From UHGV virus genome UHGV-0140522: a DNA stretch of 64,000 nucleotides; one strand, given 5' to 3'. Origin of the DNA: a virus. Shown here in pieces: positions 5,766 to 40,237 of this stretch. The position numbers were made by a program, and so were the translations under genes. The notes beneath the pieces are model-generated. The model did no database searches. It saw nothing but the letters and a program-made list of their open reading frames with translations, and was not told the origin of the DNA. Position 1 is the stretch's first letter. Each line of letters begins with the position of its first letter.

Positions 5766-5785
5766 CGGTACACTCCTTCCAAAAA

Positions 5786-5809
5786 GTAAGGCGTCCGTAG
5801 ACGCCTTAC
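5786..5809 (-). terminator. intrinsic terminator
   Basis: GTAAGGCGTC-CGTA-GACGCCTTAC hairpin plus T-tract on the minus strand. Confidence 0.55.
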
Positions 5810-5825
5810 TGGTCACGTTATGGGA

Positions 5826-6854
5826 TTACAGAGCGTCCAGTTCAGCCAGCAGGTCGTCGAGACCTTCGTCAGCTGGTGCAGATGCAGCGGCAGAAGATGC
5901 TGAAGCACTTGCAGCTGCGGCGGCTTCCGGAGCTTTAACTTCTTCCGGTTTAGTTTCCGGTTTGAACTCAGCTTCAGCGGCACGCAGGATCTCTTCATCA
6001 ACCAGGCTGGTGGACTCTGGAGCCGGAGTGTGTGCTGTAGCGACAGCAGCTGCACCTTCCGTATGACCAGTGATAGAGCCAAAGCCTGGCAGTTCAGCAG
6101 CGGCTGATTTTGCAGCGGAAGAAATGGCCGGAGACGACATTGTTGCTGCCGGAGCCGCGATACCAATCAGACGACCCATAGTGCGAGCTGTAGACAGCAG
6201 ACGGGTTTCGTCAGCCTGGTTCGCGTATGCGATCAGATCGTGTTGAGTAGTCCATAGCTTCTCAGGAATGTCGCCTTTGTAGACTTTACGTTTCGGGGAT
6301 ACGTCGTACTTGGTGTCACGACCGGAACCGGTACGCTTAATCAGGAACGCATAGCCTTCTTCTTTGCTCAGTGGGTTGCCGATATCATCCGCAATATCTT
6401 CGGACATCACTTTGCAGATATCGTCGAAGACCGTAGACGGCAGCTCAATCAGCTGGCATTTCTCTGCATCCGCAAAGTCTTCACGCGCAGACAGAACACC
6501 GTTGACCAGATAACGCGGTGTGGCACGCATACTGTTAATGCGCTCTTCCATCGCTTTATTGCCCTTAAAGCGAGCACGACCTTCCATAACCATCTCACAC
6601 AGCTGGCAAGCGTGGCCGTGGGTGTGCTGTTCGCAGATGTAGGCGGTGGTTACATCTTTGCCTTCCTCATTCTGATGCTTAACGTAGTGCATACCGAAAG
6701 TCTGGAAGAACACGCCATTCGGGTCGTCCTTGTTCGGAAAAATGCGCAGATAGTTATTGCCGTCTTTCAGACGGGTCAAATCAACGTTATTGCCACGTTT
6801 AGAAGCAATATCGCCACGGGTCTTGTTAAGCAGATCAAGTAATGACTTAGACAT
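5826..6854 (-). CDS. putative ssDNA-binding protein (Zn-binding H/C cluster, Ala/Ser-rich linker, acidic C-terminal tail)
   Basis: CEQHTHGHACQLC motif plus C-terminal DEGLDDLLAELDAL resemble a gp32-like SSB architecture; position between exonuclease and recombination genes; AAGGAG RBS. Confidence 0.4.
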   Translation of the reverse strand: MSKSLLDLLNKTRGDIASKRGNNVDLTRLKDGNNYLRIFPNKDDPNGVFFQTFGMHYVKHQNEEGKDVTTAYICEQHTHGHACQLCEMVMEGRARFKGNKAMEERINSMRATPRYLVNGVLSAREDFADAEKCQLIELPSTVFDDICKVMSEDIADDIGNPLSKEEGYAFLIKRTGSGRDTKYDVSPKRKVYKGDIPEKLWTTQHDLIAYANQADETRLLSTARTMGRLIGIAAPAATMSSPAISSAAKSAAAELPGFGSITGHTEGAAAVATAHTPAPESTSLVDEEILRAAEAEFKPETKPEEVKAPEAAAAASASASSAAASAPADEGLDDLLAELDAL

Positions 6855-6973
6855 GTATTTCTCCTTGTTGTGATTGTGGCCATTGGCGCTATGCGCGTTG
6901 GGCGTTCGTTTATTCGTGGCTCTTTCGAGCGAGAAGAATGATAGATCAGTACTTACTTACGATCTAGCATAAA

Positions 6974-29264: not shown

Positions 29265-30335
29265 ATGACAACGTTGTCCAAAAACGTGATGCAACACAGG
29301 AAGGTATTGAAAGAAACCGGTTTGGCATTTGCCAAATCTATACCGCTTGTTGGGCCTCATATTGAGGCAGCGGAAAAAATGTTCACGTTGTTCTCAGAGA
29401 TAAATGCTACGACTTGTCGTGATCGATTCAACCGTTACATTATGGGCATTGGTGAAATTTGCGACGATGAGGTCGATATCTCAAGAGAACACTTTTCGGC
29501 GTTAGTCAAAAAGCTCGTGCTTGATGATGAAGACAAGAAAACAGAATACTACATCCGCTTGACGGTAAGCCTAGCCCGCAGCAGCCTTAACGACGATGAA
29601 CGACTACTTTTTATTCATATATTAAGTGAATTAACCTGCTCTGATATCGATTATGCCCGCAAGCTCTACATTGCAACGAATGCTTCCATCAAAGGTTTTA
29701 AAACATCAGCATCAGCTCAAGCCAGCATCACATCACAAAAAAAAGCACTGTCTCTGCGCTCACTCAATAAGCTCATTTCTTCAGGACTTGTTTACGAGGA
29801 TAGAACAGGTGAGATCAAGGCCAATCCGGGCTACAAACTAACAAGCGATTTAGAGCGTCTTTTGGGATTCATTTTCCATAGTGACGATCTACAACCTACG
29901 GCATTGTCCATTGAATCGAAAGAAGAATATGACGTCATTATTATTGACAGCGACAAGATTTACCGAGGCTCATATCCAAACATTATCTATCGTCAGCTTC
30001 GGGCTGCTGGAGTTAAAGTTTGCATAGAGAAAAGTGAAGACTGTATTGCCTACAAGCTAGCAACGCTCTTCATTTCCGTCAAAACAGGTAGCGGGTTGAA
30101 CGGTCTTGGCGAGTGGATAAATTATGGCGATATTAGCGTCCTCACACATTTAGATAACAGCACTAATCGCTTTTATGAAAGTGCATTCAGGGAGACAGTC
30201 GACCGCGAGCATTTTTCACCTGGAGACGACGATTCGTCATTCGATGCAAGTAAGCTAAATAACGCACTAAATAAGGTAGCTGCGTTTGTTTTAGACCGAC
30301 TATCTCCATCTATAGGAACTAAATTAAAGCCTTAA
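29265..30335 (+). CDS. AT-rich accessory protein (356 aa), unknown function, convergent with and overlapping the 3' end of the primase gene
   Basis: Opposite strand; lower GC; a sigma70-like promoter candidate upstream (TTGTAG..N17..TATGAT). Confidence 0.55.
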   Translation: MTTLSKNVMQHRKVLKETGLAFAKSIPLVGPHIEAAEKMFTLFSEINATTCRDRFNRYIMGIGEICDDEVDISREHFSALVKKLVLDDEDKKTEYYIRLTVSLARSSLNDDERLLFIHILSELTCSDIDYARKLYIATNASIKGFKTSASAQASITSQKKALSLRSLNKLISSGLVYEDRTGEIKANPGYKLTSDLERLLGFIFHSDDLQPTALSIESKEEYDVIIIDSDKIYRGSYPNIIYRQLRAAGVKVCIEKSEDCIAYKLATLFISVKTGSGLNGLGEWINYGDISVLTHLDNSTNRFYESAFRETVDREHFSPGDDDSSFDASKLNNALNKVAAFVLDRLSPSIGTKLKP

Positions 30336-32995: not shown

Positions 32996-33721
32996 TCAAC
33001 AGAATCGCCGTGCTTCTTCCAGTTCTTCCGGGAAGTGCGCGTAAATCACACGCTCAGGCACGATTTCCATCAACCAGACAGCGGAGAAGATGATGCGGAC
33101 GCGTTTGTCTCGGGTAATGCCACGCAGACGCTCCAGAACCCACTCAAAATAGCGTTCTTGAATCGGGTCGTCCTGCATGTCTCCCAGATGCTTAAAACTC
33201 ACCAGAGAGTCATCCAGACGGGTTACAGCGCGTTTGGCTAACTTCTCTTCGAAAATCTCGATCAGCTCGGGCTGCCAGAGATGCTGGGGGCGAGGTAATT
33301 TGTCCCACAGACGGCGTGCAGCTGCGGAAAGAACGGTAGAAATAAAGTAGTCATAAGAGCAGCAGTACTGGTCGGCAAACTGGCGTGCTTTCCAGAGAGA
33401 CGTTTTGTTGGCCGTCGACAGCTCCTGATACGGCACACGTTTCAAACCGGTAGTGAATTGGGCCGTCTCATAGTGCTCGCGGCCATGCGACAGCATGATG
33501 TATGAGTACTGGCGCTTGTATGCCTCAGTGAAGAGGCATGTGGCCATAAGCGGGTGCATGTCGCGGTAATCGAACCACTTTGTCTCGAACAGCTCTGCCT
33601 CATCCTTACAGCGTGACAGCCCAATATTCTCGGCCACCCACTTGTCCATGACTGTGGTGTCCCACTCGGTCATGAAGTCGTACTGGTCGTTGTTAATAGT
33701 GTTAAAGAAGATCTGGCTCAT
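32996..33721 (-). CDS. hypothetical protein (241 aa) downstream of the helicase (possible replication accessory protein)
   Basis: ORF track; no motifs recognised. Confidence 0.45.
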   Translation of the reverse strand: MSQIFFNTINNDQYDFMTEWDTTVMDKWVAENIGLSRCKDEAELFETKWFDYRDMHPLMATCLFTEAYKRQYSYIMLSHGREHYETAQFTTGLKRVPYQELSTANKTSLWKARQFADQYCCSYDYFISTVLSAAARRLWDKLPRPQHLWQPELIEIFEEKLAKRAVTRLDDSLVSFKHLGDMQDDPIQERYFEWVLERLRGITRDKRVRIIFSAVWLMEIVPERVIYAHFPEELEEARRFC

Positions 33722-33912
33722 GTGCTTTGCTCGATAGGTAGTTACTTACTTATCATAATGAGCGAATCATAGCGACTGGAGACTGTTTTTGGAAGTGGAA
33801 ACGGAAGGGAATGTGTCTGGGAAGTTGGCATAGAAAAAGACCTGCTCCCGTATAAATAATAATAAGTAACTTAGTATTTATATACGAAAACAGGTTCACA
33901 GAAGTATAATTT

Positions 33913-35616
33913 TTAAATTGTTTTAATAATATACCTTACCCTAAATTCATTTAAAGAAGACAATTTAGAAATCCTTACAAGTGCATCTTTGGCCTTTCTG
34001 GTTATCTGCTCTTGCTCACTGGTGGGATTAGTTAAGTTGTCAAATTTTAACAGACCATTTTTGACTAGATTCATCACATCTCGTTCACATGTTGTCATCC
34101 AATTGAAATAGTCATCCTCACTAAAATTATTCAAAGCATCAACATCTCTTGGGTTATAAGAATTGCCTGCACTTAGCTTAATTAGTATATCTTCTAAAGA
34201 AATCCCTTCATATTTAAGTGCAACGATTCGATTTTTAATGACACTTGACAATTTTTCAAAATTTATATGTGCATCTATTAAATCTGAATACGCTAAATTT
34301 ATATCACATCTTTCGAAAAATGCATCAGTATATTTCGTAATGTAGTCGTCACAATCTTCCCCTAGAGATTCCAACATTTCCATTAAACTGGATACCCTAC
34401 CCAATGGAAGATCACAAAGATTTTCTTCAAATAGCTTTTTAATTTCAGAAATAAAAACAAAATCATTCTTTGCAAAGGACCCAGTATAAATAGCCCAAAC
34501 ATCATTAACTTTATTATTCAATGTGATATTAGTATAATCTTTATTCTTCTTTTGGATTACTTCACCAAGATTACTTGCAGCGATTTTATAACCATGTTTT
34601 AGATGAAAGTCAATATCATCATCAAACACACCATCGCATCTATTAAAAACATCTTCGACATTACCTACAAATAGATGCACAGGTGTTTTGTTATCTACTT
34701 CATCGTCTGGAATGTAGTATGCATTTGTATTAATGAGAGTTTTGAACTCTTCGTAATCGACGTCATGAACCCCAGAATAGTAGACAAATGAAAATAAAGC
34801 TACTCTATTGACAAAGTCAGCTCTAACCTGTTCATGTGCTTCGCAAAGGTCTTTTTCATATTCTGCAAGCATATTTTTAATTTTAATTAATATCCGAATG
34901 TTTTTAATATCCAAATGCAATACAATTTCTTTTAAATATTTATAGTTTTTATCATTTTTAAAAAAAACTTTATCCAGGTTATCAATGGCCATTGGGGAAA
35001 ACATAATATCTAGATCTACAATTTTCTCTCTGTACTCTGAGAATTGTTTTTCCTCTTTTGTCCCCTTGAGATTGTTTTCATTATAAACCAGTATTATTTT
35101 ACAGTTTTTCTTTCGGGCTAACTCATCAATCAACCCCATGATATCCTTTATCTCTAAAGAGTTACCTTTTCTTTCTAAATCGTCAAAACAAATTACATAA
35201 TCCTTTACAAACGAATATTCAACAGCCGAAACAAAATTTCCCGCTCTAAAACCTATAGACGTATTGTCGAAATATTTTATAATGAACTTAGATAATCTAT
35301 TATATTTTAAACAATAACAAATTTTGGAAAGGAATTTCCCATTCACTATTTTATCTTGTTCGACAAGTGTCTGCCTATACTTTTTTTCATTTATTGGAGT
35401 CGCCAAATGAAATATTTCTTTCTTAATTTCATTTATTGAGTTTTTTCCAAAAAGAGAAATATATGAGTAAGCACTTTTATTTAGCGAATTAACATTTTTG
35501 TGATAGTACCCATTCCAAAAATGTGTTTTCCCTATCCCCCAATCACCTTTTATTACAGCAACCTTATTGTCTGAATTGAAAAAAGTGTTTAAGACTTCAT
35601 CCAAATTTATCATCAT
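33913..35616 (-). CDS. KAP-family P-loop NTPase (very AT-rich, Lys/Asn/Ile-rich)
   Basis: N-terminal GDWGIGKT Walker A and ICFDDLER Walker B are hallmark KAP NTPase motifs; composition is sharply lower in GC than the flanks. Confidence 0.7.
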   Translation of the reverse strand: MMINLDEVLNTFFNSDNKVAVIKGDWGIGKTHFWNGYYHKNVNSLNKSAYSYISLFGKNSINEIKKEIFHLATPINEKKYRQTLVEQDKIVNGKFLSKICYCLKYNRLSKFIIKYFDNTSIGFRAGNFVSAVEYSFVKDYVICFDDLERKGNSLEIKDIMGLIDELARKKNCKIILVYNENNLKGTKEEKQFSEYREKIVDLDIMFSPMAIDNLDKVFFKNDKNYKYLKEIVLHLDIKNIRILIKIKNMLAEYEKDLCEAHEQVRADFVNRVALFSFVYYSGVHDVDYEEFKTLINTNAYYIPDDEVDNKTPVHLFVGNVEDVFNRCDGVFDDDIDFHLKHGYKIAASNLGEVIQKKNKDYTNITLNNKVNDVWAIYTGSFAKNDFVFISEIKKLFEENLCDLPLGRVSSLMEMLESLGEDCDDYITKYTDAFFERCDINLAYSDLIDAHINFEKLSSVIKNRIVALKYEGISLEDILIKLSAGNSYNPRDVDALNNFSEDDYFNWMTTCERDVMNLVKNGLLKFDNLTNPTSEQEQITRKAKDALVRISKLSSLNEFRVRYIIKTI

Positions 35617-35638
35617 TTATGCTCTATTTGACAAATGT

Positions 35639-35662
35639 AAAAGGCGCCTCTCAGCGCCTTTT
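35639..35662. terminator. bidirectional terminator (AAGGCGC-CTCTCA-GCGCCTT) between the par partner gene and the KAP gene
   Basis: Read directly. Confidence 0.55.
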
Positions 35663-35664
35663 AC

Positions 35665-36024
35665 TTAACCTTTCTTCATCAGCTCACGCTTGATTTCATC
35701 GGTGCGCATCGTGACGTCGGCAGCGGTGATCGCCTCGTTCAGTTTCACGATGTCTTCGATTTCCTGCGGCGACTTCTCTGCCAGATGGAAAATGGCTGCG
35801 CGAATCACGTCAGAACGGGTGAACTTCTCGAAACGAGGGATGAACTTCATCATCTCCAGCAGATCGAAGTACTCGTCTTCCAGCGACATTGTGCGGCTCT
35901 TAATCTTCTCTTTCCCACGAGTCGGACGCCCCTGCGGTCTGACTGGCTGGCGCATTGGGGTGCTGCTTTTTACCGGTTCTTCCGGATCTTTGCGCTTTGC
36001 AAGGTCTCCCATTCTCATGGACAT
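35665..36024 (-). CDS. small partition protein, ParB/ParG-like partner of ParA (119 aa)
   Basis: Translationally coupled (ATGA) downstream of parA; basic N-terminus plus a helical C-terminus, typical of type Ib centromere-binding proteins. Confidence 0.5.
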   Translation of the reverse strand: MSMRMGDLAKRKDPEEPVKSSTPMRQPVRPQGRPTRGKEKIKSRTMSLEDEYFDLLEMMKFIPRFEKFTRSDVIRAAIFHLAEKSPQEIEDIVKLNEAITAADVTMRTDEIKRELMKKG

Positions 36025-36689
36025 TATTCTTCCTCCAGACTCATGATGTAATCTACAAACTCTTCAAACTCGGCTTCTGCCTTCTTATCGCGTTCGGCGC
36101 CAGTCATTTCAAAGATAGAACGACCTGCCTCTTCCGCATCGTCATAAACGTTACGGTTGTACAGGTTAACCGGCGCAGCCTCGATGCCGAATGTCTCGAC
36201 AATTTCTTTCGCCGCCAGAATACGTGACGCCTGGGAAGGCAGTGACGGACACTGGTTCACTACCGCGCGGATCTTCACAGTCTCGTTCACGTTGCGAACG
36301 TTGTCGATAATCGGGTCGATATCACGCAGGGATTTCAAATCACGACGCTTAGGGCGAAGCGGGATAATGATGAAGTCTGCCAGCAGCATCGCTTGTCGCT
36401 GAATTTCGGAGTCAAAACCACCCGCATCAATGACGACGTAATCGTAGCGTCCCTTCAGCGATTTGATGTGTTTGACGATGTCGTCCTGAACGTATGCGAA
36501 CGGGATTAGCTCAAGATCTTCGTTCTGGCGACGGTCTTCGCACCAGCTCGTTGTGGTGCGCTGAATATCAATGTCGGTGACGTGAGTCTTCTTTTTCTTT
36601 TTAACTTTGAGGCATACCGCAATTTGCTGGGCAACGGTAGATTTGCCTGGGCCGCCTTTTGTGCCGCCAACCACAATGATCCTGGTCAT
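36024..36689 (-). CDS. parA: ParA/Soj-family partition ATPase (short type Ib form)
   Basis: Deviant Walker A GGTKGGPGKST at the N-terminus; 221 aa; AAGGGAA RBS. Confidence 0.85.
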   Translation of the reverse strand: MTRIIVVGGTKGGPGKSTVAQQIAVCLKVKKKKKTHVTDIDIQRTTTSWCEDRRQNEDLELIPFAYVQDDIVKHIKSLKGRYDYVVIDAGGFDSEIQRQAMLLADFIIIPLRPKRRDLKSLRDIDPIIDNVRNVNETVKIRAVVNQCPSLPSQASRILAAKEIVETFGIEAAPVNLYNRNVYDDAEEAGRSIFEMTGAERDKKAEAEFEEFVDYIMSLEEE

Positions 36690-36934
36690 TGGTGAGTTCC
36701 CTTTGCGTGAATTATTGTCGTATGAAACAACTTGTTTTCTTATATGCGATATAGCCTAAATGCCTACGGCTACGGTGTAAAGGTGAAATGATAGGCAATG
36801 CAGGGTGTTAGCTCACAGAGCAAACTAACAGTTGAATGTTTGGCCAATCAGCCTTATAGTGAATGTACGGAAAGACGCCGTACATATGACGGGTTTGACC
36901 GATAATATTATTGATGCTTGAAATGACTATATAA

Positions 36935-37040
36935 ATACTGATCTTACTGAATAAATACCGTTTAAATTACTGTTACTAATCGCTTATATACTGACATTAA
37001 ATTATTGAGTTGATACTGAAATAGCTTATATATCTGACAC
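36935..37040. repeat. cluster of (T)ATACTGA(C) direct repeats upstream of parA; candidate centromere (parS-like) iterons
   Basis: At least 4 copies plus variants in an AT-rich 420-bp divergent intergenic region. Confidence 0.4.
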
Positions 37041-37109: not shown

Positions 37110-37379
37110 ATGTCAGCACTGAAAAAACAGCGCATCGATCTAAGATTAACTGACGACGACAAGAGCATGATCGAAGAAGCTGCGGCAATGACCAACCAGA
37201 CTATTACTCAGTTTATGGTTGCCAGCGCCTCTGAACGTGCTGCGGAAGTGATAGAGCAACATCGCCGCTTGATTCTCAGTGAAGAGTCCTGGAATCTGGT
37301 AATGGATGCCATCAGTAACCCGCCTGCACCGAACGATAGGCTGAAACGAGCTGCCAAACGTCTACAAAGCATGGAGTAA
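37110..37379 (+). CDS. DUF1778-type RHH antitoxin (TacA/KacA/AtaR-like)
   Basis: 89 aa; N-terminal ribbon-helix-helix; GGAG RBS; it sits 3 nt upstream of the GNAT gene. Confidence 0.7.
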   Translation: MSALKKQRIDLRLTDDDKSMIEEAAAMTNQTITQFMVASASERAAEVIEQHRRLILSEESWNLVMDAISNPPAPNDRLKRAAKRLQSME

Positions 37380-37382
37380 GAC

Positions 37383-37907
37383 GTGGCCGACCTGACCATA
37401 GAGATGTTTTCAGCACAAGCCGTATACGATTTTTCTGGCTTCGACTGCGGCGAACCATCTCTGAATGATTTCCTGCAAAACCGCCTAGTACAGCAACACA
37501 ACGGGCGTATATTACGCGGCTACCTGCTTCTTACCAAAGATCCGGTGCCGAAAGTTAAGGGTTTTTACACGCTATCCGGGAGCTGTTTTGCAAGACAGAC
37601 GCTACCATCGAACACCCAGAAGCGGAAAATCCCCTACGCAGATGCACCCAGCGTTACGCTTGGCCGCCTGGCAATAGATATCAGCCTACAGAAACAAGGC
37701 TACGGTGAGGTTCTCGTAACGCACGCGTTGAAGGTTGTTTATCAGGCTTCTCGCGCAGTAGGCATATACGCTTTGTTTGTGGATGCACTAAACCAAAGCG
37801 CAATGCAGTTCTATCAGAAGTTTGGATTCATCCCTTTGACGGGGGCGAATGCGAACTCGCTTTTCTACCCCACGAAAAGCATTGAAGAGCTGTTTGAAAC
37901 AGAGTAA
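37383..37907 (+). CDS. GNAT acetyltransferase toxin (TacT/KacT/AtaT-like), GTG start
   Basis: 174 aa GNAT fold (acetyl-CoA motif QKQGYGEVLV; FGF..L); the classic two-gene arrangement with the DUF1778 gene. Confidence 0.7.
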   Translation: MADLTIEMFSAQAVYDFSGFDCGEPSLNDFLQNRLVQQHNGRILRGYLLLTKDPVPKVKGFYTLSGSCFARQTLPSNTQKRKIPYADAPSVTLGRLAIDISLQKQGYGEVLVTHALKVVYQASRAVGIYALFVDALNQSAMQFYQKFGFIPLTGANANSLFYPTKSIEELFETE

Positions 37908-39448: not shown

Positions 39449-40237
39449 TTACACACGAGCACCATAAATTGCACCGACTTTAGTCCATGTAGGCACGTTC
39501 CCCGTGACAGCCTTACCCGCCGCGCCACCTCCGTACATTGTCCCCAATCGTCCAGTGGCAGCGGCACCAGCAGCCCCCACATTACCTCCACTACCGCATG
39601 TGTATTGGACAGCAGTAGAGCCGATCAAATATTGAGCGCCAATCCCGGCAGCGGTTAGAGTGCCAGAAGTTGCCGCACGCGAATTTGAAGCTGGTGGCCT
39701 TGTAGTGTTTGCAACACCAAACGGGCGACCGCCCCCACCCATACCACCATCGGCTGAGTTACCGCCACCGCCACCGCCACCACCGGCAATAGCGCCGTTA
39801 TTGGTTATTCTTAAACGGGTCCCAATTCCGTTGTTAATAGCAGTGCCACCGGCAGCACCGCCACCTTTAACGCCACCATTACCGCCACGGCCATAGACAG
39901 TTACACCTGCGTTGATTACCAGGCTGATATAAGAGTTGGTAAGCGAACTTGGGAAATCTAAACATGGCACGCCGCTACTGTACGACACCAGATCCCCTGT
40001 AATGGTAACAACGACTGGTGTCGACCCCTGTGATTTTAAATAGTTGATCAGTGTGTCTTTGTTGTAGTTATGATTCGCACCGATGCTGTAATGAATTTCC
40101 GTAGAACGACCTGCTAACTGAGACATATTCCCAGCAGCAGACAATTGCACCGCAGTTCGAGCCGCGCTCATCCATCTCTGGCCGGTAACACTAACAGCCG
40201 AAGATCCAATCCAACCGGGAACACCGACAATTGGCAC
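39449..40237 (-). CDS. glycine-rich tail fibre protein (GTG start)
   Basis: Poly-Gly tracts (GGGGGGGNSADGGMGGGG) typical of phage fibre proteins; AAGGAG RBS. Confidence 0.55.
   Translation of the reverse strand: MPIVGVPGWIGSSAVSVTGQRWMSAARTAVQLSAAGNMSQLAGRSTEIHYSIGANHNYNKDTLINYLKSQGSTPVVVTITGDLVSYSSGVPCLDFPSSLTNSYISLVINAGVTVYGRGGNGGVKGGGAAGGTAINNGIGTRLRITNNGAIAGGGGGGGGNSADGGMGGGGRPFGVANTTRPPASNSRAATSGTLTAAGIGAQYLIGSTAVQYTCGSGGNVGAAGAAATGRLGTMYGGGAAGKAVTGNVPTWTKVGAIYGARV

What the first reader, a model, noticed from the sequence alone, without database searches (positions are those of the whole stretch)
33913..35662. Insulated, strongly AT-rich KAP-family P-loop NTPase gene wedged between the replication and partition modules: candidate defence or exclusion cargo
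The protein carries the KAP hallmarks (GDWGIGKT Walker A at the extreme N-terminus, DDLER-type Walker B) and has Lys/Asn/Ile-rich composition far below the GC of its neighbours. A bidirectional terminator sits directly upstream. KAP NTPases are recurrent, functionally uncharacterised components of defence islands; a single-gene copy on a phage-plasmid suggests a superinfection-exclusion or abortive-infection role.
Basis: partly seen in the sequence, partly recalled or inferred. Interest (0 to 1): 0.7.

Follow-up and report, generated by a model that had tools for sequence, protein, structure and literature searches.

The report
Candidate antiphage ATPase in phage-plasmid hotspot
This is an intact, foreign-looking (30% GC) gene for a soluble KAP-type ATPase, sitting in a swap-in/swap-out slot of an SSU5-like phage-plasmid where relatives carry known or candidate anti-phage genes, so it is very probably a single-gene defence protein of a recently validated class, though this subfamily is untested.

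Summary
A 567-aa ORF (33913-35616, minus strand) has 30% GC against about 52% in its flanks. It carries Walker A GDWGIGKT and Walker B CFDDLER, passes Pfam KAP_NTPase, and lies between two stable hairpins between the partition and replication modules. The window is Citrobacter plasmid pRHBSTW-00524_2, an SSU5-like phage-plasmid.

The slot is a defence hotspot. In 74 related loci it is empty (5) or holds KAP (7), DUF2971/PDC-S31 (about 44), PD-T7-5, PD-T4-3, or unknown genes. KAP alleles share only 39-71% identity while their flanks are 84-100% identical. All are intact and under purifying selection.

The protein pairs an AAA+/STAND-like ATPase with a family-specific alpha-solenoid. It has no membrane helices and no recognisable effector domain. 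Homologues are always solitary genes on mobile elements (ICE transfer operons, a prophage immunity region).

The best reading is a sensor-switch ATPase for anti-phage or anti-mobile-element defence. It resembles the KAP proteins validated in 2026 but forms a distinct subfamily; it is not PifA, QatA or PDC-S49 proper. Function and mechanism are inferred, not shown. I rate it a new member of a known kind, of moderate interest.

The parts
33913..35616 (-). KAP-family P-loop NTPase gene: 567 aa, WP_131405960.1, 30% GC
   Evidence: ORF. RefSeq annotation 'P-loop NTPase fold protein'. Pfam KAP_NTPase 32.3 bits against a cut-off of 20. phrog_4740 full length, 6e-99. GC 0.300.
34846..35616 (-). N-terminal AAA+/STAND-like NTPase domain plus lid (residues 1-257)
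35524..35547 (-). Walker A motif GDWGIGKT (residues 24-31)
   Evidence: G24, W26, G27, G29, K30 and T31 are invariant in 67 sequences.
35170..35190 (-). Walker B motif CFDDLER (residues 143-149)
   Evidence: C143, D145, D146, E148 and R149 are invariant. The motif aligns with the PifA Walker B region.
35242..35334 (-). Variable basic amphipathic insert (residues 95-125) at the position where canonical KAP proteins carry membrane helices
   Evidence: pLDDT below 50. 17% mean identity and 19-62 aa long across the family. Net charge +6 and hydrophobic moment 0.53, in the top 1% of the protein's own 18-mers. No TM segment: maximum KD19 is 0.93, and the family maximum is 1.58.
33916..34845 (-). Family-specific all-helical (alpha-solenoid-like) C-terminal domain (residues 258-567), the putative sensor
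35637..35664 (-). GC-rich hairpin between the par operon and the cargo. It is bidirectional-terminator-like, probably leaky, and travels with the cargo.
   Evidence: -19.7 kcal/mol, z -4.8. Absent from empty slots, and present in different sequence versions with most cargos. Only about 21 nt separate it from the ATG.
33840..33895 (-). Conserved AT-rich hairpin plus U-run: the native terminator of the par operon and the downstream edge of the slot
   Evidence: -20.1 kcal/mol, z -4.3. Conserved in all relatives, including empty slots, with wobble or compensated stem changes.
33898..35664 (.). Exchangeable cassette (maximal extent). The minimal extent is 33898-35637.
   Evidence: Homology to DUF2971-carrying relatives ends at about 35638 and resumes at about 33897. 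Homology to SSU5 ends at the stop of the 119-aa gene. Empty-slot sequences.
35665..36689 (-). Partition operon on the upstream flank: ParA (36024-36689) and the 119-aa partner (35665-36024)
   Evidence: Pfam AAA_31/MipZ/CbiA and phrog_164 ParA-like; phrog_5111. 84-99% identical in relatives.
32996..33721 (-). Conserved 241-aa gene (phrog_2500), first gene of the replication block on the downstream flank. It was used as the anchor for the survey.

Best explanation
The gene is accessory cargo in a defence hotspot of an SSU5-type phage-plasmid. It most likely encodes a single-polypeptide anti-phage (or anti-mobile-element) immunity protein of the 'KAP NTPase plus C-terminal region' class.

Proposed mechanism:
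1. The gene has no room for its own promoter, because about 21 nt separate the hairpin from the ATG. It is therefore transcribed at a low level in the plasmid-prophage state, by read-through from the parA/119-aa operon across a leaky hairpin, and ends at the operon's native terminator. This step is inferred.
2. The protein is cytosolic, or peripherally attached through its basic amphipathic insert. Its fast-diverging alpha-solenoid C-terminal domain recognises an invader-derived protein or nucleic-acid cue. This step is inferred from the architecture and the divergence pattern.
3. Recognition switches the AAA+/STAND-like ATPase, through its invariant Walker A, Walker B, N179 and R241 residues, into an ATP-dependent oligomeric state. 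This step is inferred from the fold.
4. No nuclease, protease, pore or other effector fold is present. The block to the invader is therefore probably non-enzymatic: sequestration or remodelling of a phage factor, or assembly on DNA as in the structurally closest Orc/Cdc6, TnsC and MuB ATPases. This would give a non-abortive phenotype, as reported for EF_KAP. This step is speculative.

What is shown: the family assignment, the hotspot, mobile-element-only solitary contexts, intactness and purifying selection, and the two-domain fold. What is not shown: any phenotype, the trigger, or the effector step.

The confidence of 0.65 applies to the claim that this is a defence or exclusion gene of the KAP class. 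The specific non-enzymatic mechanism deserves about 0.3.
For: Family: Pfam KAP_NTPase is above its cut-off, and the Walker motifs are invariant.

Hotspot: 1 of 762 relatives matches across the 10-kb region. In 74 loci the slot is empty in 5, holds KAP in 7, and otherwise holds DUF2971/PDC-S31, PD-T7-5 (6e-138), PD-T4-3 (1.9e-23), a 351-aa gene, a membrane-protein pair or a lipoprotein. The 2025 SSU5 survey also lists PD-T4-3 and PD-T7-5 in such phage-plasmids. A DUF2971 protein ('Aristaios') is validated as antiphage.

Validated class: single-gene KAP NTPases with uncharacterised C-terminal regions protect against phages. Protection needs both the Walker B motif and the C-terminal region, and is not abortive.

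Allele pattern: KAP identity is 39-71% against 84-100% for the flanks. Between L007 and L008, DnaB is 99.6% identical and KAP 52%. All 12 alleles are intact, with dN/dS of 0.08-0.22.

Contexts: homologues are solitary genes inside ICE type IV secretion operons at two different positions, next to a prophage S24 repressor, or beside IS66. They are AT-rich everywhere.

Expression layout.
Against: - There are no experimental data for this protein or its subfamily.
- Matches to PADLOC PDC-S49 cover only the N-terminal ~300 residues, and PDC-S49 is itself only a candidate.
- NCBIfam has no model for it.
- The validated EF_KAP has two transmembrane helices, while this family has none. The mechanism may therefore differ.
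- The lack of any effector fold leaves the killing or blocking step unexplained.
- No promoter was identified, and a 30% GC gene in an enterobacterial host may be silenced (established knowledge of H-NS; not tested here).
- Guilt by association in a hotspot is not proof, because hotspots also carry non-defence cargo.
Confidence: 0.65

Rival explanations
1. PifA-like abortive infection. The protein senses a phage protein and, through its basic amphipathic insert, acts at the inner membrane to cause leakage or depolarisation, killing the infected cell. This is still defence, but by a different mechanism.
For: PifA is the classical KAP protein, lacks transmembrane helices, and excludes T7 through membrane depolarisation and nucleotide leakage. 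PifA also shows no TM segment by hydropathy. In the window protein, the insert at the canonical TM position is basic and strongly amphipathic.
Against: The relation to PifA is remote: 21% identity over the NTPase only, pairwise E 0.001, hhalign probability 45%. The PADLOC PifA model does not hit the window protein. The only KAP-plus-unknown-region protein tested at different multiplicities of infection was not abortive. The amphipathic insert is poorly conserved (17% identity) and has low model confidence.
Confidence: 0.2
2. Anti-defence or establishment factor. The ATPase helps the mobile element (phage-plasmid, ICE or prophage) overcome host immunity or settle in a new host, rather than protecting the host.
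For: Homologues sit inside ICE conjugation operons that are expressed during transfer. Phage-plasmids do carry anti-defence genes.
Against: The identifiable alternative cargos of the same slot are defence systems or defence candidates, not anti-defence genes. The size and sensor-plus-ATPase architecture are typical of immune sensors. The validated KAP proteins are defences. The Pseudomonas homologue lies beside the prophage repressor, a typical place for lysogen-expressed defence genes.
Confidence: 0.08
3. Plasmid-maintenance or replication accessory, acting as a third gene of the par operon or as a helicase loader.
For: It lies between the par and replication genes, runs in the same direction as both, and is probably co-transcribed with parA. 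The ATPase fold resembles the Orc/Cdc6 initiators.
Against: It is absent from about 87-90% of relatives. Five relatives have an empty slot. It is replaced by unrelated genes in either orientation. It is 30% GC and highly divergent while the flanks are nearly identical. The same family occurs in ICEs and prophages that have unrelated replication systems.
Confidence: 0.03
4. A silent or neutral passenger: a horizontally acquired AT-rich gene kept off by xenogeneic silencing, with no current function in this element.
For: The gene has 30% GC in a roughly 51% GC element. No promoter was identified, and a hairpin lies directly upstream.
Against: All 12 alleles examined are intact, with dN/dS of 0.08-0.22. 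The catalytic residues are invariant across 67 diverse members. Full-length architecture is kept in 314 clusters. The identical leader layout precedes PD-T7-5 in the same slot.
Confidence: 0.05

Closest known systems
KAP P-loop NTPase antiphage proteins with C-terminal regions of unknown function (EF_KAP and three metagenomic proteins; PLoS Biol 2026, PMC13552941)
   Same: Both are single genes on mobile DNA. Both have an N-terminal KAP NTPase followed by about 300 aa with no recognisable domain. In that class both the Walker B motif and the C-terminal region are needed, and the C-terminal regions differ between members.
   Different: EF_KAP has two transmembrane helices, while this family has none. 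The C-terminal domain here is a distinct family-specific solenoid. The host is a Gammaproteobacterium rather than a Firmicute. This protein has not been tested.
PADLOC candidate PDC-S49 (predicted single-gene defence candidate)
   Same: It is the best PADLOC hit, at 3.3e-22. It has the same KAP NTPase type, is soluble, and has a similar length of about 620 aa. A full-length member lies on an Enterococcus plasmid near a small serine recombinase.
   Different: Only the first ~300 residues align. The Enterococcus protein matches end to end but shares only 27% identity over residues 1-207 with the window protein. The window protein therefore belongs to a sister subfamily. No paper was found on PDC-S49.
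PifA of the F plasmid (T7 exclusion)
   Same: It has the KAP fold without transmembrane helices, is plasmid-borne, and lies near replication and partition genes.
   Different: It is 741 aa and shares 21% identity over the NTPase only, with hhalign probability 45%. The PADLOC PifA and QatA models do not match the window protein. pifA is not AT-rich (0.48 GC) and has a dedicated repressor, PifC.
Bacterial STAND/NLR-like antiviral ATPases (Avs type) and Tmn
   Same: These combine an ATP-switch domain with a helical-repeat sensor that recognises phage proteins. The window protein's ATPase fold resembles NLR, CED-4 and RdrA. Tmn senses through a solenoid arm.
   Different: There is no separate effector domain here. 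KAP-type Walker B motif (DDLER). The protein is much smaller than the Avs proteins. Tmn is a membrane decamer of the YobI family.
Defence hotspots inside mobile elements (P2/P4 hotspots and SXT ICE hotspot 5; recalled from my own knowledge, not tested here)
   Same: A fixed site between conserved core genes carries mutually exclusive defence cargos, and the flanking homology allows exchange.
   Different: Here the site lies between the partition and replication modules of an SSU5-type phage-plasmid. The cassettes are almost bare ORFs bounded by two hairpins and apparently lack their own promoters. I found no paper describing this particular slot.

Membership tests
KAP family P-loop NTPases (Pfam PF07693) | Profile match above the curated threshold | tested here: met
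   32.3 bits against a gathering score of 20, E 8.4e-8, residues 14-226. PF07693 is precomputed for nearly all homologues.
KAP family P-loop NTPases (Pfam PF07693) | Walker A GxxGxGK[ST] near the N-terminus and an acidic Walker B of the hhhhDD-x-[DE]-R type | tested here: met
   GDWGIGKT (24-31) and CFDDLER (143-149) are invariant in 67 sequences.
KAP family P-loop NTPases (Pfam PF07693) | Two or four transmembrane helices associated with the NTPase domain. This is typical but not universal, since PifA lacks them. | tested here: not met
   Maximum KD19 is 0.93 in this protein and at most 1.58 in all 67 members. PifA also lacks them, so this does not exclude membership.
Validated 'KAP NTPase plus region of unknown function' antiphage class (PMC13552941) | A single polypeptide with an N-terminal KAP NTPase and a C-terminal region of about 300 aa without known domains, carried on mobile DNA | tested here: met
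   Domain layout. No PDB or fold match for the C-terminal region. Mobile-element contexts.
Validated 'KAP NTPase plus region of unknown function' antiphage class (PMC13552941) | Protection against phage that depends on the Walker B motif and on the C-terminal region | not testable with these tools
   This needs plaque and infection assays with K30A, D145A/D146A and deletion-of-258-567 mutants.
PADLOC PDC-S49 | Full-length match to the PDC-S49 models (about 620 positions) | tested here: not met
   The matches cover protein residues 20-218, 137-297 and 6-255 only. A true member matches positions 13-616 of 624.
PifA / QatA | Match to the PADLOC PifA or QatA models | tested here: not met
   There is no hit at E up to 1, although these models do detect F PifA at 2.9e-290 and 1.3e-14.
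STAND / NLR-like immune ATPases | A three-part layout: effector domain, STAND NTPase, and repeat sensor | tested here: inconclusive
Defence hotspot of a mobile element | The same site between conserved genes holds alternative, unrelated cargos, including known defence systems, and can be empty | tested here: met
   74 loci were surveyed. Cargos include PD-T7-5, PD-T4-3 and PDC-S31. Empty slots exist.

The most novel reading that the evidence does not exclude
This soluble 'KAP ATPase plus private solenoid' subfamily may be an effector-less immune protein. On this reading it stops invading DNA directly, by ATP-dependent assembly on a phage (or plasmid) replication factor or on DNA, like its closest structural relatives Orc/Cdc6, TnsC and MuB. 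That would be a non-abortive mechanism not yet described for bacterial defence ATPases.

In addition, the SSU5 slot may define a class of promoterless, hairpin-bounded defence cassettes. Their expression would be tied to the plasmid partition operon through a leaky terminator, and they would be exchanged as bare ORFs among phage-plasmids, ICEs and prophages.
Probability: 0.15. Interest if true: 0.7.

Novelty: new member of a known kind. Interest (0 to 1): 0.45.

Why it matters
SSU5-like phage-plasmids are common in clinical Klebsiella, E. coli, Shigella, Salmonella and Enterobacter; 762 PLSDB records match this backbone. Standard defence finders do not call this gene, so these elements may be scored as having no defence.

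If the gene protects against phages, about one in eight of these elements would change the phage susceptibility of its host. That matters for phage therapy and for competition between mobile elements.

The slot is also a ready discovery site. Its remaining unknown cargos (a 351-aa protein, a membrane-protein pair and a lipoprotein) are defence candidates by the same logic.

The subfamily offers a compact, soluble, single-chain model for how a KAP ATPase and its C-terminal region work together. The 2026 validation study left that question open.

Tried and rejected
- NCBIfam scan: no family.
- PDB sequence search with the family profile: only chance-level hits, E about 0.4.
- Foldseek against viral structures: generic AAA+ matches with TM at most 0.29.
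- afdb50 library: not available; the call was not counted.
- Simple terminator scan: missed the upstream hairpin because of its short U-run. Folding showed the hairpin is real.
- Promoter scan: nothing convincing upstream of the ATG. The only candidate has its -10 element overlapping the start codon.
- Literature: no paper mentions PDC-S49, and no paper describes this SSU5 slot as a hotspot. One search failed on a term that was too short.
- Helicase-loader or partition role: considered and rejected because of patchy presence and empty slots.
- In-situ hypermutation as the source of allele diversity: considered and rejected. dS is saturated between lineages, dN/dS is low, and near-identical backbones carry alleles that are 52% identical. 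This fits replacement by recombination from an old pool.
- Klebsiella SSU5-like plasmid 'p2' (PMC8969562): I did not check which cargo it carries. A whole-plasmid deletion phenotype could not be assigned to this gene anyway.
Full report
WHAT IS THERE

The window matches Citrobacter sp. RHBSTW-00524 plasmid pRHBSTW-00524_2 (NZ_CP056422.1, 112.6 kb, IncFIB) at 100% identity. This is an SSU5-like phage-plasmid, 94% identical to Salmonella phage SSU5 over the shared parts.

The flagged ORF is real. It runs 33913..35616 on the minus strand and encodes 567 aa. RefSeq annotates it as 'P-loop NTPase fold protein'.

Its GC content is 0.300. Neighbouring genes have 0.51-0.55 and the whole window 0.507. 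The protein is rich in Lys, Asn and Ile.

Pfam KAP_NTPase is matched above its curated threshold: 32.3 against 20 bits, E 8.4e-8. Walker A GDWGIGKT (24-31) and Walker B CFDDLER (143-149) are invariant in a 67-member alignment.

The gene order, all on the minus strand, is ParA, a 119-aa partner, KAP, a conserved 241-aa gene, a DnaB-like helicase, then primase.

THE TWO HAIRPINS AND THE CASSETTE

A perfect GC-rich hairpin with an A-run and a U-run lies at 35637-35664, between the stop of the 119-aa gene and the KAP start. It folds at -19.7 kcal/mol, z -4.8.

A second hairpin at 33840-33895 (-20.1 kcal/mol, z -4.3), followed by a U-run, lies just after the KAP stop.

Homology to relatives with other cargo ends about 21 nt before the ATG and resumes about 15 nt after the stop. 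The exchanged unit is therefore almost a bare ORF.

In relatives whose slot is empty, the stop of the 119-aa gene is followed directly by the AT-rich hairpin. That hairpin is therefore the native terminator of the par operon. The GC-rich hairpin appears only in filled slots, with a different sequence for each cargo type.

There is no room for a promoter between the hairpin and the ATG, and the scan found none that is usable. I therefore infer that the gene is transcribed by read-through from the par operon.

THE SLOT IS A DEFENCE HOTSPOT

Only 1 of 762 related plasmids matches the window across the whole 10-kb region.

I fetched 80 related loci anchored on the 241-aa gene. In 74 of them the slot was complete:
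- 5 loci: empty (about 205 bp).
- 7 loci: KAP.
- 16 loci: forward-oriented DUF2971 (9 alone, 7 combined with other genes).
- About 28 loci: a 1105-bp insert that proved to be a reverse-oriented DUF2971 gene.
- 11 loci: a reverse-oriented 351/357-aa gene alone.
- 6 loci: a pair of membrane proteins.
- The remainder: PD-T7-5, a GIY-YIG protein, or a lipoprotein.

PADLOC assigns:
- the DUF2971 genes to candidate PDC-S31 (down to 1e-41);
- the 395-aa gene to PD-T7-5 (6e-138);
- the GIY-YIG gene to PD-T4-3 (1.9e-23).

A 2025 survey of SSU5 phage-plasmids also lists PD-T4-3 and PD-T7-5 among the systems it detected. A DUF2971 protein, 'Aristaios', is an experimentally validated antiphage system. That PD-T7-5 and PD-T4-3 came from a functional selection in E. 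coli is my own recollection (Vassallo et al. 2022), not something tested here.

In PLSDB, about 100 SSU5-like plasmids carry a full-length KAP homologue (Klebsiella 75, Escherichia 21, Salmonella 2). About 240 carry a DUF2971 homologue. In four plasmids checked by annotation, the KAP homologue sits in exactly this slot.

ALLELE PATTERN

The KAP alleles in the slot share 39-71% amino-acid identity. Their flanking genes are 84-100% identical. Two Klebsiella plasmids with 99.6% identical DnaB carry KAP alleles that are only 52% identical.

All alleles have about 30% GC. All 12 examined are intact. dN/dS is 0.08-0.22 where it can be measured, and dS is saturated between lineages.

This fits old, functional allele lineages exchanged by homologous recombination at the conserved flanks. 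It does not fit decay or local hypermutation. The DUF2971 cargo shows the same deep divergence.

THE PROTEIN

AlphaFold2 with the family alignment gives a confident model, with mean pLDDT 87. The C-terminal domain modelled alone reaches 91.7.

The only low-confidence stretch is residues 95-125, between Walker A and Walker B, where canonical KAP proteins carry membrane helices. Here it is a variable segment (19-62 aa, 17% identity). It is basic (+6) and strongly amphipathic.

Neither this protein nor any of the 67 family members has a transmembrane segment. PifA is also reported to lack them and shows none by hydropathy.

The domain is private to this family. It matches 314 representative clusters, always at the C-terminus of proteins of about 530-600 aa. 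It diverges faster than the ATPase core, at 23% against 41-44% mean identity.

WHERE ELSE THE FAMILY LIVES

264 homologues were found, and most cover the full length. In every context sampled the gene is solitary and on a mobile element:
- inside the type IV secretion operons of integrative conjugative elements in Klebsiella and Salmonella, at two different positions;
- beside the S24 repressor of a Pseudomonas prophage;
- next to IS66 in Oleispira.

It is AT-rich relative to its surroundings in all of them.

COMPARISON WITH KNOWN SYSTEMS

A 2026 study showed that single-gene KAP NTPases fused to uncharacterised C-terminal regions protect Enterococcus against phages. Protection needed the Walker B motif and the C-terminal region. 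EF_KAP did not act by abortive infection, and it has two membrane helices.

The window protein has the same layout but is soluble and has its own C-terminal domain.

Its best PADLOC match, PDC-S49, covers only the first ~300 residues. A true PDC-S49 member from an Enterococcus plasmid matches end to end and shares only 27% identity over residues 1-207 with the window protein.

PifA is a remote relative: 21% identity over the NTPase and hhalign probability 45%. The PADLOC PifA and QatA models do not match the window protein.

The protein is therefore a KAP-family member in a distinct subfamily. It is not PifA, QatA or PDC-S49 proper.

INTERPRETATION

The most likely reading is a single-gene defence or exclusion protein. 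It would be expressed at a low level from the par operon in the plasmid-prophage state. The solenoid would sense an invader cue, and the ATPase would switch or oligomerise.

The absence of any effector fold suggests a direct, non-enzymatic block. A PifA-like membrane route through the amphipathic insert is the main mechanistic rival.

Roles in maintenance or replication are nearly excluded by the patchy presence of the gene and by the empty slots. An anti-defence role and a silent-passenger status remain possible but less likely.

None of this has been tested experimentally.

VERDICT

The kind of system is already known: KAP single-gene defence, and defence hotspots in mobile elements. This is a new, untested member with variant features.

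Its practical value is twofold. It adds a well-defined defence slot in a clinically common group of phage-plasmids, and it points to several further unknown cargos in that slot.

Noticed in passing
Same slot in relatives: L003:3676-4731 (+), the slots of L022 and L034, and others: A 351/357-aa protein with no Pfam or PADLOC match occupies the slot in reverse orientation. It is alone in 11 of 74 loci and combined with DUF2971 in 4 more. By the same hotspot logic it is a candidate new defence gene.
   Followed up: partly
L002:4945-5989 (SSU5_035/036), and the slots of L040 and L047: A pair of small membrane proteins fills the slot in SSU5 and several relatives. It is translationally abutted to the stop of the 119-aa gene (TGACATG) and has no upstream hairpin. 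There is no defence-library match. Alleles are only 36-77% identical.
   Followed up: partly
L021 slot (5784-6867): A 225-aa predicted lipoprotein (signal peptide with an LLAGC lipobox) occupies the slot in one relative. It has no Pfam or PADLOC match and may be a surface-exclusion-type cargo.
   Followed up: partly
window 37110-37907 (+): A TacA-like antitoxin (PF08681, 2e-26) and a GNAT acetyltransferase toxin pair lie just upstream of parA. Relatives carry different genes between parA and the lysis cassette, so this looks like a second variable slot.
   Followed up: partly
window 36907-37032: Short iterated repeats around an ATACTGA core lie upstream of parA in a 38-40% GC stretch. They may be par operator or centromere repeats.
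   Followed up: no
window 29265-30335 (+): A 356-aa ORF sits in another AT-rich dip (GC 0.39-0.44) just beyond the primase gene. It has no Pfam match and only a chance-level PADLOC hit.
   Followed up: partly
window 39763-39802: A 40-nt stretch is 100% identical to the long tail fibre adhesin gene of T4-like phage vB_EcoM_VR20. It lies inside the phage-plasmid's 'receptor-recognizing protein' gene, which hints at tail-fibre mosaicism.
   Followed up: no
L010:10001-11779 and L011:10001-11731 (Salmonella ICEs); L009:10001-11758 (Klebsiella ICE): KAP homologues of about 31% GC are wedged inside type IV secretion operons of about 60% GC. Two Salmonella ICEs hold different KAP cluster representatives (576 and 592 aa) in the same position. 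The Klebsiella ICE holds one at a different position in the operon. This suggests analogous cargo slots inside conjugation modules.
   Followed up: partly
L016:12446-15761 (F plasmid): In RefSeq, F PifA is annotated only as 'P-loop NTPase fold protein', the same label as the window gene. That label therefore hides both a classical exclusion protein and this family.
   Followed up: yes
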